Of a stretch of 23,440 bases of DNA, positions 15,921 to 16,327 are shown piece by piece. The notes under the pieces were generated by a model. It saw only the letters and a program-made list of their open reading frames with translations. It was not told the DNA's origin and did no database searches. A program made the position numbers and the translations under genes. The first letter of the stretch is position 1. Every line of letters starts with the position of its first letter. Source of the DNA: a virus (lineage: Duplodnaviria > Heunggongvirae > Uroviricota > Caudoviricetes); IMG/VR virus record IMGVR_UViG_2563366964_000006. One strand, written 5' to 3'.

Positions 15921-15952
15921 GGTGCTGAGCGTACAGCACCACTAAAAAGGGA

Positions 15953-15978
15953 ATAAGTTGAAGGGGTTCAGTGATTAA
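15953..15978 (-). promoter_or_regulatory. Conserved motif (minus strand TTAATCACTGAACCCCTTCAACTTA), candidate late-promoter / activator-binding element upstream of the I-like gene
   Basis: Core 15957-15973 is identical to 4169-4185; ends 36 nt upstream of the ATG at 15920; followed by a 7-bp-stem hairpin at 15921-15940. Confidence 0.4.
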
Positions 15979-16184
15979 GCGTGGGGGCTGTTGTCGTGGG
16001 GCGGGCTTTTCTGCTTTTCTGTCATCTCATTCCGGAGAGACTGGCGGCGCTTCTGGAATCGCCGTTCGAAATAACGGTCGGTCAGGCGATCGAGAATCCA
16101 GAGAAACACCCTGAAGCCGATCCCAATGATGACCCATTGCGTCACCGTAAAATAATCCAGGAATGCCTTGAAGGTTTCCACCAC
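15975..16184 (-). CDS. Small single-pass membrane protein of unknown function (candidate moron)
   Basis: 69 aa: one hydrophobic helix (WVIIGIGFRVFLWIL) then a strongly basic tail; GTG start with a weak GGGGGAA upstream; sits in a ~400-bp gap between G-like and I-like genes. An antisense ORF (15981..16196, +) covers the same DNA, so coding strand is uncertain. Confidence 0.3.
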   Translation of the reverse strand: MVETFKAFLDYFTVTQWVIIGIGFRVFLWILDRLTDRYFERRFQKRRQSLRNEMTEKQKSPPHDNSPHA

Positions 16185-16327
16185 TTCCCCCGTTAATCGA
16201 ATGAGCCCCCCGACGATATCGCCAGGGCTTTTTAAACCCCTTTTAAAAACGATTAACAGGGGATGAGGCGAATCACTCTACCACATTTGCGATAAACGCG
16301 TCTGCGTGGCTTACAGCGCCGTTACGC

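What the first reader, a model, noticed from the sequence alone, without database searches (positions are those of the whole stretch)
15921..16327. ~400-bp insertion between the G-like and I-like genes encoding a small membrane protein (candidate moron)
The head genes are otherwise tightly packed with overlapping stops and starts, but here a 407-bp gap holds a 69-aa ORF (15975..16184, minus) with one transmembrane helix and a highly basic tail. Upstream on the minus strand is an extended -10-like TGGTAGAGT (about 16275-16283) with no good -35, and an inverted partial copy of the AAGGGGTT core (plus 16232-16246). An equally long antisense ORF covers the same DNA. The locus looks like cargo inserted at an operon boundary; candidate roles include superinfection exclusion, a membrane toxin, or lysis timing. 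This is the best candidate in the window for an uncharacterised accessory function, but the evidence is weak.
Basis: inference. Interest (0 to 1): 0.5.

Follow-up and report, generated by a model that had tools for sequence, protein, structure and literature searches.

The report
TMD1-less pinholin-family gene in Mu-like prophage
The gap between two head genes of this Mu-like prophage holds a real accessory gene for a 68-residue membrane protein related to the phage 21 "pinholin" lysis protein but lacking its first membrane helix, inserted beside ordinary regulatory DNA; it is a modestly interesting variant of a known protein family.

Summary
The 407-bp G–I gap and its minus-strand ORF are real. 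ORF length alone proves nothing: 45% of random gaps of this composition hold one as long. Comparison with relatives does prove the gene. At least eight diverged lineages keep the frame, synonymous sites are saturated and amino acids are conserved. The antisense ORF is a shadow. Only about 185 bp of the gap is extra: about 60 relatives, and Mu itself, have a 196–245 bp non-coding gap. That gap holds a weak terminator-like hairpin, a universal AT-rich dyad where Mu has its strong gyrase site, and an activator-dependent late promoter for I that predicts a leaderless mRNA. The protein is not orphan. Its family matches Pfam PF04971 (phage 21 holin S; hhalign 97.8%) from the aromatic patch through TMD2 to the basic tail. 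It lacks TMD1 and the glycine zipper. It lies 7 kb from a complete lysis cassette with a non-SAR GH19 endolysin. Best reading: an accessory N-out/C-in membrane-permeabilising protein that modulates lysis timing. Function and expression are inferred, not shown. A conserved extended −10 accompanies every ORF-bearing gap, so expression in the lysogen ("moron") remains possible. This is a new variant of a known kind.

The parts
16288..16334 (-). Hairpin spanning the G stop codon (16328-16330), followed by GUUUAUC. It is a weak terminator-like element at the end of the lys-to-G late operon.
   Evidence: -15 kcal/mol, z = -1.2, not significant in the window. Several ORF-less relatives have a canonical stem plus T-run at the same place. 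Mu has a predicted terminator in the same gap.
16269..16285 (-). Conserved 17-nt block TGTGGTAGAGTGATTCG containing the extended -10 TGgTAGAGT (16275-16283). It is a candidate sigma-70 promoter for the small gene, with a predicted start near 16268.
   Evidence: It occurs once in the window. It is present in 21/21 ORF-bearing unique gaps, 6/61 ORF-less gaps and 0 ORF-bearing gaps without it. It always lies at the same distance from the dyad. Promoter activity is inferred.
16229..16251 (.). AT-rich dyad CGTTTTTAAAAGGGGTTTAAAAA with two TTTAAA cores 11 bp apart. It is universal in the phage family and is a candidate strong-gyrase-site element.
   Evidence: It occurs once in the window, with 0 expected by chance. 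It is present in nearly all relatives, including ORF-less ones. It aligns with Mu's TTTTTTAAAA...TTTTTAAA next to the annotated gyrase cut site. The gap lies at the genome centre in MK388859. Function is inferred.
16186..16263 (-). Long-range leader stem with arms at 16250-16263 and 16186-16199. It buries the Shine-Dalgarno GGGGG (16187-16191).
   Evidence: -36.8 kcal/mol, z = -3.5, 0/200 shuffles fold as well. It is present only in the window clade and is not conserved in other lineages.
15975..16181 (-). Gene for a 68-aa single-pass (N-out/C-in) membrane protein of the phage 21 S holin family that lacks TMD1. An alternative GTG start lies at 16184.
   Evidence: Coding signature: pS 0.6-1.0 against pN 0.17-0.35, with third-position excess. 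There are 21 homologue clusters, and every one whose context was checked lies in the G-I gap. PF04971 matches 17/17 members. hhalign gives 97.8%. An exhaustive profile search recovers S21 pinholins. tblastn of the window protein lands on annotated S holin genes.
15981..16196 (+). Antisense shadow ORF of 71 aa. It is not a gene.
   Evidence: It is in the codon-aligned antisense frame. pS is about equal to pN in that frame. It has no family hits. PGAP nevertheless annotated its counterpart in E. coli FDAARGOS_1303.
15959..15973 (-). Late-promoter activator site CACTGAACCCCTTCA (dyad TGAA-N4-TTCA) of the PI-equivalent promoter. The stop codon of the small gene abuts it.
   Evidence: Exact second copy at 4171-4185(-), and a third copy with 1 mismatch before the endolysin in L098. 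It is conserved before I in relatives. The site is centred about -43.5 from the predicted start, as for Mu C/Mor.
15928..15933 (-). The -10 hexamer TACGCT of the PI-equivalent promoter, flanked by the inverted repeat GGTGCTG/CAGCACC (15934-15940 and 15921-15927).
   Evidence: The offset from the activator site is the same (positions 41-46) as TACTAT at the second copy and AATACT at Plys. TAnnnT is conserved 6-7 nt before the ATG in relatives.
15918..15920 (-). ATG of gene I. It has no Shine-Dalgarno and lies 7 nt after the -10, so a leaderless mRNA is predicted.
   Evidence: This is inferred from spacing. The transcription start has not been mapped.
4171..4185 (-). Second exact copy of the late-promoter motif, before the 116-aa gene 3783-4133 (context). 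The -10 TACTAT lies 6 nt before the ATG.

Best explanation
The G-I gap is a composite of ancestral regulatory DNA and a lineage-specific gene.

About 220 bp is the ancestral central regulatory spacer of this Mu-like phage family. It contains a weak terminator-like hairpin after G, a universal AT-rich dyad in the position of Mu's strong gyrase site, and an activator-dependent late promoter for I. That promoter has a Mor/C-type site centred near -43.5 and a -10 hexamer 7 nt before the ATG, so the mRNA is predicted to be leaderless.

Between the dyad and that promoter, some lineages including this one carry a gene for a 68-aa protein. The protein is a homologue of the phage 21 pinholin S21 that starts at the aromatic patch at the end of TMD1. 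It keeps the periplasmic loop, TMD2, the LT(D/N)xYF juxtamembrane motif and the basic cytoplasmic tail.

Most likely mechanism (inferred): the protein inserts N-out/C-in and self-associates through its single TMD. Above a threshold concentration it makes small, ion-conducting lesions that collapse the membrane potential. This phage has a cytoplasmic GH19 endolysin and its own candidate holin (DUF2644), so the protein would act as an accessory trigger or timer of lysis rather than as the essential holin.

The gene is probably transcribed by read-through from the lys-to-G late operon, from the conserved extended -10 promoter, or both. Translation appears to be kept low by a GTG start and, in this clade, an SD-occluding stem.

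Confidence that it is a real gene of the PF04971 family is about 0.9. Confidence in the lysis-timing or membrane-permeabilising role is about 0.45.
For: Real gene:
- Eight lineages at 53-73% nucleotide identity keep the frame. pS is 0.6-1.0 and pN is 0.17-0.35. Substitutions by codon position are, for example, [11,5,26]. The antisense frame shows pS about equal to pN.
- The N-terminus METFKAFLDYFT is invariant while its codons vary synonymously.
- Each lineage has an SD at the aligned start.

Family assignment:
- 17/17 members hit PF04971, the best at 2.9e-9.
- NCBI names some members 'phage holin'.
- A profile search of 1.84 billion proteins recovers two-TMD S21 holins at E of 3e-4 to 1e-3.
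- hhalign gives 97.8% probability, aligning family residues 4-54 with S21 residues 24-74.
- tblastn of the window protein hits 321 phage records; the 20 best-listed hits lie on S holin genes or the homologous position of unannotated Stx phage records.

Topology: one hydrophobic segment, an acidic N-flank and a basic C-flank in all members.

Precedent for function without TMD1: S21 truncations lacking TMD1 still form conducting pores. Pore-forming propensity stays very strong until the aromatic patch YWFLQW is removed (preprint 10.1101/2021.04.20.440580).

Accessory status: ORF-less relatives have the same lysis cassette of GH19, DUF2644 and spanins, and the endolysin has no SAR domain. Unlinked accessory holins are known in P1.

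Placement upstream of PI.

Weak initiation signals: GTG or TTG starts and the SD-occluding stem.
Against: - No functional or expression data exist.
- The window copy alone scores 16 bits against PF04971, below the 26-bit cutoff.
- The S21 glycine zipper G40xxxS44xxxG48 is not kept. The window has R at the S44 position and W at the G48 position, and charged residues sit in or near the TMD.
- A pinhole cannot release this phage's soluble GH19 endolysin, so any lysis role must be indirect.
- Most relatives do without the gene.
- Some copies are frameshifted: P0003, L022, and the tails of P0002 and P0011.
- The conserved extended -10 needs no late activator. That argues for expression outside the late programme.
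- The SD-occluding stem is clade-specific.
Confidence: 0.45

Rival explanations
1. Lysogen-expressed moron. The gene is transcribed from its own sigma-70 extended -10 promoter in the uninduced prophage. The holin-like protein then serves the lysogen, for example through superinfection exclusion, or through an abortive-infection hair-trigger that depolarises the membrane when another phage infects.
For: - TGnTAGAGT is conserved in 21/21 ORF-bearing gaps and needs no activator.
- The G-I site is an insertion hotspot that carries unrelated cargo elsewhere, including low-GC cargo on the opposite strand.
- A distant single-TMD relative, P0025, lies on the opposite strand inside a lambdoid lysis cassette that already has its own S21-type holin. 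That is a typical moron position.
- There is a weak hit to SieB, PF14163, at E = 0.13.
Against: - The gene has the same orientation and the same GC as the late genes.
- It has no terminator of its own, because its stop abuts the PI site.
- The same promoter-like block is present in 6 ORF-less gaps, so it is not specific to the cargo.
- There are no PADLOC hits.
- Constitutive expression of an untimed pinholin would be risky for the host.
Confidence: 0.22
2. Holin regulator rather than pore former. The TMD2-like helix binds the phage's own DUF2644 holin candidate, or S21-type holins of co-resident lambdoid phages. It then delays or poisons hole formation, acting like an antiholin or a dominant negative.
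For: - The pore-lining glycine zipper is lost while the loop and the juxtamembrane motifs that could mediate helix-helix contacts are kept.
- In S21, interactions between TMDs control activity.
- P0025 co-occurs with a full-length S21-type holin.
Against: - There is no sequence relationship to DUF2644.
- In S21, inhibition is attributed to TMD1, which is exactly the part missing here.
- The gene is unlinked to the lysis cassette.
Confidence: 0.13
3. Decaying remnant. A truncated holin gene picked up by recombination now has little or no function and is being lost.
For: - Its distribution is patchy.
- Several copies are frameshifted or have replaced tails.
- The window clade and the E. coli-type clade share only 47% amino-acid identity in this protein while the flanking G and I proteins are 84% identical.
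Against: - Purifying selection is strong across at least 8 lineages and the N-terminal 12 residues are invariant.
- The distance to the I start is a constant 55 nt (54 nt in the window clade), and each lineage has an SD.
Confidence: 0.08
4. The region is non-coding, or the plus-strand antisense ORF is the true gene, as PGAP annotated in E. coli FDAARGOS_1303.
For: - ORFs of this length arise by chance in 45% of random gaps.
- The antisense ORF is annotated in one RefSeq genome.
Against: - The substitution pattern fits only the minus-strand frame.
- The antisense product has no homologues or family hits.
- The antisense frame is the codon-aligned shadow frame.
Confidence: 0.02

Closest known systems
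Phage 21 pinholin S21 68/71 (Pfam PF04971 Phage_holin_2_1)
   Same: Homologous from the aromatic patch and loop (FxxFLDxxTPxQW) through TMD2 (WxxIG...), the LT(D/N)xYF motif and the basic C-terminal tail. Similar size, about 68 aa. The predicted N-out/C-in orientation of the shared helix is the same.
   Different: It has no TMD1 (the SAR/antiholin helix). The Met-Lys-x-Met dual start is absent. The glycine zipper is not conserved. The gene is not next to an endolysin. The phage's endolysin is a non-SAR GH19 enzyme.
Engineered N-terminal truncations of S21 68 (for example 18-68, 24-68, 30-68; preprint 10.1101/2021.04.20.440580)
   Same: The natural protein corresponds roughly to S21 from residue ~20 onward. 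The truncations show that TMD2 alone is sufficient for conducting pores and that keeping the aromatic patch preserves strong pore-forming propensity.
   Different: Those are laboratory constructs of S21 itself. The natural family has diverged TMD residues, and its pore activity is untested.
Phage Mu G-I intergenic region (strong gyrase site, terminator, C-dependent late promoter PI)
   Same: Same position between G and I at the genome centre. Phased TnAn tracts are present. A terminator-like hairpin is present. An activator-dependent promoter with a recognisable -10, no -35 and a dyad near -43.5 is present.
   Different: Mu has no gene there, and its I mRNA has a leader with an SD. The activator-site sequence differs. 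Gyrase cleavage at the dyad of this family is untested.
Accessory or unlinked holin-like genes in other phages (P1 LydC/LydD; mycobacteriophage D29 single-TMD LysA2b)
   Same: These are extra holin-like membrane proteins, encoded away from the main lysis genes, that tune lysis timing.
   Different: The protein families and phage types are different. No sequence relationship was tested.
Mu gp25 releasin (DUF2730)
   Same: A small single-pass membrane protein with predicted N-out/C-in topology in a Mu-type phage, involved in lysis.
   Different: There is no PF10805 hit at E <= 1. The releasin has an anionic cytoplasmic domain and acts on a SAR endolysin. This protein has a basic tail, and the phage has no SAR endolysin.

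Membership tests
Phage 21 S holin family (PF04971) | Significant sequence similarity to the family profile | tested here: met
   The family as a whole meets it. 17/17 members hit PF04971, the best at 2.9e-9. hhalign gives 97.8% probability and E = 1e-12. A profile search recovers S21 holins at E of 3e-4 to 1e-3 in 1.84 billion proteins. The window copy alone scores 16 bits against a 26-bit cutoff, so its membership is transitive.
Phage 21 S holin family (PF04971) | Two transmembrane domains, with an N-terminal SAR-type TMD1 that delays triggering | tested here: not met
   There is a single hydrophobic segment. The alignment starts at S21 residue ~21-24. No in-frame start lies upstream. The matched profile positions are 20-63 of 64.
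Phage 21 S holin family (PF04971) | TMD2 glycine zipper (G40xxxS44xxxG48 in S21 68), which packs the pinhole. The feature is recalled from the literature, not from a paper read here. | tested here: not met
   In the window, the aligned positions are G20, R24 and W28. These positions vary across the family.
Phage 21 S holin family (PF04971) | Charged, basic cytoplasmic C-terminal tail | tested here: met
   The C-flank has net charge +4 with 9 K+R. All members have net charge +2 to +7.
Phage 21 S holin family (PF04971) | Gene located in the lysis cassette, adjacent to a SAR endolysin | tested here: not met
   The gene lies between head genes G and I, about 7 kb from the GH19 endolysin. The endolysin N-terminus has no SAR or TMD segment.
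Holin (functional class) | Lethal, timed membrane lesion that energy poisons can trigger prematurely | not testable with these tools
   This requires expression and DNP-triggering assays like those used in PMC9239132.
Moron (extra, independently transcribed gene in a prophage; definition recalled from Hendrix and colleagues) | Gene present between two conserved genes and absent from related phages | tested here: met
   There are 21 ORF-bearing and 61 ORF-less unique gaps. The baseline gap is 206-245 bp.
Moron (extra, independently transcribed gene in a prophage; definition recalled from Hendrix and colleagues) | Own promoter and own terminator | tested here: inconclusive
   The extended -10 is conserved in all ORF-bearing gaps but also occurs in 6 ORF-less gaps. 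No terminator follows the gene, because its stop abuts the PI activator site.
Moron (extra, independently transcribed gene in a prophage; definition recalled from Hendrix and colleagues) | Base composition different from neighbouring genes | tested here: not met
   GC is 0.53 against 0.54 for the window. The other cargo at this site has GC 0.36-0.42.
Mu-type C/Mor-dependent late promoter (for the PI-equivalent at 15921-15973) | Recognisable -10, no -35, and a dyad activator site centred near -43.5 that is shared by several late operons | tested here: met
   The motif occurs before I, before a tail/baseplate operon and before the endolysin, with -10 hexamers at an identical offset. A Mor-family gene lies upstream. 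Activator binding was not tested.
Mu strong gyrase site (for the dyad at 16229-16251) | Efficient gyrase cleavage, and a requirement for replicative transposition from a central position | not testable with these tools
   Only the position (G-I gap at the genome centre) and the phased TnAn tracts agree. The papers that define SGS sequence requirements are not held in the library.
Mu gp25 releasin (DUF2730, PF10805) | Match to DUF2730 | tested here: not met
   No PF10805 hit at E <= 1 for any of the 17 members.

The most novel reading that the evidence does not exclude
This is a natural, 'pre-triggered' pinholin. It is a family of S21-like proteins that has dispensed with the TMD1 timing domain and is fixed beside the central dyad (candidate gyrase site) of Mu-like prophages. 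It would be expressed at a low level from an activator-independent extended -10 promoter in lysogens. There it would act as a hair-trigger membrane depolariser, either aborting superinfection or setting the lysis clock for an otherwise unrelated holin-endolysin pair.
Probability: 0.2. Interest if true: 0.65.

Novelty: new variant of a known kind. Interest (0 to 1): 0.45.

Why it matters
Phage Mu is reported to lyse without a holin (PMC9239132). How its many relatives with cytoplasmic endolysins time lysis is an open question. A holin-family gene that lacks the timing helix, and that sits outside the lysis cassette in a subset of Mu-like prophages, gives a natural test of two ideas. One is that TMD2 of the S21 family is sufficient for membrane permeabilisation. 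The other is that accessory holins tune lysis.

The result also has practical value for annotation. The window copy and its close relatives are labelled 'hypothetical', and one RefSeq genome annotates the antisense shadow ORF instead.

The surrounding non-coding DNA may interest Mu specialists more than the gene does. It holds a shared late-promoter motif that predicts leaderless I and tail-operon mRNAs, and a universal central dyad that may be the gyrase site.

Tried and rejected
- Rfam scan of 15700-16500 at E <= 1 found nothing.
- blastn against deposited phage genomes gave one distant hit, in gene I only. Only 1 of 5,426 complete E. coli genomes carries a related gap.
- The genome-contig scan with the I protein returned only one locus. 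The viral-contig scan with an alignment was far more productive.
- The first single-sequence protein search found only 3 near-identical clusters, which suggested an orphan. The profile search overturned that.
- I tested whether the strong SD-occluding leader stem is a conserved regulator. It is confined to the window clade, so I do not rely on it.
- I looked for remnants of the ORF in the closest ORF-less relatives (L012, L025) to decide between insertion and deletion. There is no convincing similarity, so the direction is unresolved.
- PADLOC and NCBIfam gave no relevant hits for the protein. Pfam and PADLOC gave none for the alternative cargo proteins.
- AlphaFold2 gave only two helices at pLDDT 70. 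I did not run a fold search because it would be uninformative for a single helix.
- I could not read the papers that define the sequence requirements of Mu-like strong gyrase sites. The gyrase-site reading of the dyad therefore stays an inference.
- The idea that the AAGGGGTT-like string in the dyad is a copy of the late-promoter core was rejected.
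Full report
CONTEXT

The window is the late region of a Mu-like prophage, read on the minus strand. Pfam identifies these genes:
- portal, 18110-19690
- F, 16870-18144
- G, 16328-16873 (PF05069)
- protease/scaffold I, 14802-15920 (PF10123)
- major head protein T, 13475-14383

Neighbouring head genes overlap or abut.

OBSERVATION

The following features are all present:
- The minus-strand ORF 15975-16184.
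- Its single hydrophobic segment and basic tail.
- TGGTAGAGT at 16275-16283.
- The antisense ORF 15981-16196.

ORF length is no evidence by itself. 45% of random 407-bp sequences of the same composition hold a complete ORF of 68 codons or more.

IS IT A GENE?

A single-sequence search found only three near-identical clusters. Two of them have frameshifted tails or bodies.

A more diverged E. coli prophage has a 69-aa ORF at the same place, with TFKAFLDYFT..QW..IG...TDRYF.RR conserved. A profile of four lineages then retrieved 21 clusters.

Every member whose context I checked lies between G and I. This includes 42-60%-identical copies from Cedecea, Pantoea and metagenomes. In those copies the gene lies 146-158 nt after the G stop and 55 nt before the I ATG (54 nt in the window clade).

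The evidence for coding, taken across eight lineages at 53-73% nucleotide identity, is:
- The proportion of synonymous differences is 0.6-1.0, against 0.17-0.35 for non-synonymous differences.
- Substitutions pile up at third positions, for example [11,5,26].
- In the codon-aligned antisense frame the two proportions are equal.

The minus-strand ORF is therefore a gene under purifying selection, and the antisense ORF is a shadow. PGAP nevertheless annotated that shadow in E. coli FDAARGOS_1303.

The aligned start is ATG in most lineages, TTG in one, and the second GTG (16181) in the window. Each has a Shine-Dalgarno sequence at normal spacing.

HOW MUCH OF THE GAP IS 'INSERTION'?

I compared 80 viral-contig relatives and several genomic ones.
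- The G-I gap is 206-245 bp in about 60 relatives. It is 196 bp in Mu by annotation (199 bp by the script).
- It is enlarged only where cargo is present: 367-423 bp with this gene, 643-645 bp with an unrelated 131-134-aa ORF (GC 0.40), and 1033 bp with a 247-aa membrane ORF on the other strand (GC 0.36).

The site is therefore an insertion hotspot, but only about 185 bp of the window's gap is extra.

Alignment with the nearest ORF-less relatives puts the variable segment between the dyad (plus GCCCTGGCG) and the late-promoter motif. I could not tell insertion from deletion.

The gene's GC (0.53) equals the window's (0.54).

THE ANCESTRAL PART OF THE GAP

In Mu the same gap holds the strong gyrase site, a predicted terminator and the C-dependent late promoter PI. 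The family studied here shows analogous elements.

(a) A hairpin lies just after G. It is a canonical terminator in several relatives but weak in the window.

(b) A dyad, CGTTTTTAAA-N5-TTTAAAAACG, lies at window 16229-16251.
- It occurs once in the window, where none is expected by chance.
- It is present in nearly all relatives.
- Its two TTTAAA cores are one helical turn apart.
- MAFFT aligns it with the TTTTTTAAAA...TTTTTAAA of Mu's gyrase-site right arm.
- In a complete relative the gap lies at the genome centre.

That it is a gyrase site is an inference.

(c) The motif CACTGAACCCCTTCA lies at 15959-15973.
- It recurs exactly at 4171-4185, before a tail/baseplate gene.
- It recurs with one mismatch before the GH19 endolysin of the same prophage type.
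- In all three copies a -10 hexamer (TACGCT, TACTAT, AATACT) sits at the same offset. This puts the TGAA-N4-TTCA dyad near -43.5, as described for Mu C and Mor.
- A Mor-family gene lies upstream of the endolysin.

For I and for the tail-operon gene, the ATG follows the -10 by 6-7 nt and there is no Shine-Dalgarno. Both mRNAs are therefore predicted to be leaderless, and this spacing is conserved across the family.

The small gene's stop codon abuts this activator site. The gene therefore lies upstream of PI and is not driven by it.

WHAT THE PROTEIN IS

The window copy alone gives only weak holin hits: PF04971 at 16 bits against a 26-bit cutoff, and holin PHROGs at E of about 0.01. The family as a whole is unambiguous:
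- All 17 members match PF04971, the best at 2.9e-9.
- NCBI names several members 'phage holin'.
- An exhaustive profile search of 1.84 billion representatives returns canonical two-TMD S21 pinholins at E of 3e-4 to 1e-3.
- hhalign gives 97.8% probability, aligning family residues 4-54 with S21 residues 24-74.
- tblastn of the window protein against deposited phage genomes hits 321 records; the 20 best-listed hits lie on S holin genes or the homologous position of unannotated Stx phage records, at 33-35% identity. No deposited phage has a close copy.

The homology begins at the aromatic patch at the end of TMD1. It then runs through the loop, TMD2 and the LT(D/N)xYF motif to the basic tail. TMD1 is absent, and no in-frame start lies upstream.

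Charge distribution predicts N-out/C-in. AlphaFold2 gives helices at 2-9 and 13-57. The glycine zipper of S21 is not kept: the window has R and W at two of its three positions.

HOW IT LIKELY WORKS

Truncated S21 lacking TMD1 still forms conducting pores, although transient ones. Truncations that keep the aromatic patch retain a very strong pore-forming propensity. The natural protein corresponds to such a truncation.

This phage has a complete lysis cassette 7 kb away: a GH19 endolysin without a SAR domain, a two-TMD DUF2644 protein, i- and o-spanins, and two small proteins. ORF-less relatives share this cassette.

A pinhole cannot release a soluble endolysin. The most economical role is therefore an accessory membrane-depolarising trigger or timer of lysis, analogous to the accessory holins of P1. 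This role is inferred.

Expression is also inferred. Two routes are possible:
- Read-through from the lys-to-G operon across a weak hairpin.
- The 17-nt block TGTGGTAGAGTGATTCG. It is present in 21/21 ORF-bearing unique gaps, in 6/61 ORF-less gaps, and at a fixed distance from the dyad.

Weak initiation signals fit a toxic product. They are a GTG start and, in this clade only, a -37 kcal/mol stem that buries the SD (z = -3.5).

RIVALS

- An activator-independent promoter would mean expression in lysogens. That fits the hotspot character of the site, and it fits a distant single-TMD relative that sits like a moron inside a lambdoid lysis cassette.
- A regulator or antiholin role is possible, because the pore-packing motif is lost.
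- Frameshifted copies and patchy distribution allow a decaying remnant, but the selection signature argues against it.

VERDICT

- The 'cargo' idea is partly right.
- '~400-bp insertion' and 'uncharacterised' are overstated.
- The gene is a TMD1-less variant of a known holin family in an unusual location, and it is moderately interesting.
- The leaderless late promoters and the central dyad are side findings worth following up.

Noticed in passing
window 15918-15973 (-) and 4131-4185 (-); L098 6284-6362: Three late operons share the motif CACTGAACCCCTTCA, followed by 25 nt and then a TAnnnT hexamer. For gene I and for the 116-aa tail/baseplate-region gene (3783-4133), the ATG follows the -10 by 6-7 nt and has no Shine-Dalgarno. 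Leaderless late mRNAs are therefore predicted. The arrangement is conserved across ~80 Mu-like relatives. I found no literature on it.
   Followed up: partly
window 16229-16251: The AT-rich dyad CGTTTTTAAA-N5-TTTAAAAACG is single-copy in the window. It lies at the genome centre, in the position of Mu's strong gyrase site, and is present in nearly all relatives whether or not they carry the small gene. It is a candidate gyrase site and is untested.
   Followed up: partly
L010 2756-2989 (+) = NZ_CP070045.1 1525379-1525612: RefSeq/PGAP annotates the antisense shadow ORF (WP_233098473.1, hypothetical protein) instead of the holin-family gene on the other strand. The window-clade proteins are likewise labelled 'hypothetical', while sister clades are labelled 'phage holin'.
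   Followed up: yes
L052 857-1261, L061 865-1260 (+); L060 434-1177 (-): Other relatives carry unrelated, low-GC cargo in the same G-I site. One is a 131-134-aa soluble-looking protein on the late strand. The other is a 247-aa multi-TM protein on the opposite strand. Neither has Pfam or PADLOC hits.
   Followed up: partly
window 23174-23440 (-), 22579-23208 (-), 22659-22853 (-): The right end of the window holds part of the lysis cassette. An 88-aa two-TMD DUF2644 protein directly follows the GH19 endolysin, which lies just outside the window, and is a candidate canonical holin. Next comes an i-spanin with an embedded o-spanin that has the lipobox LPAC.
   Followed up: partly
L101 4001-4183 (+): A distant single-TMD S21-like protein (P0025, 60 aa) lies on the opposite strand inside a lambdoid lysis cassette that already encodes a full-length PF04971 holin and a lysozyme. 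TMD1-less S21 relatives may therefore be a wider class of accessory genes.
   Followed up: no
window 15921-15940 (-): A perfect 7-bp inverted repeat, GGTGCTG/CAGCACC, brackets the -10 hexamer of the PI-equivalent promoter and ends at the I start codon (fold -15.4 kcal/mol, z = -4.2). A similar repeat brackets the -10 at the second late promoter (GCCGA/TCGGC). Its role is unknown.
   Followed up: no
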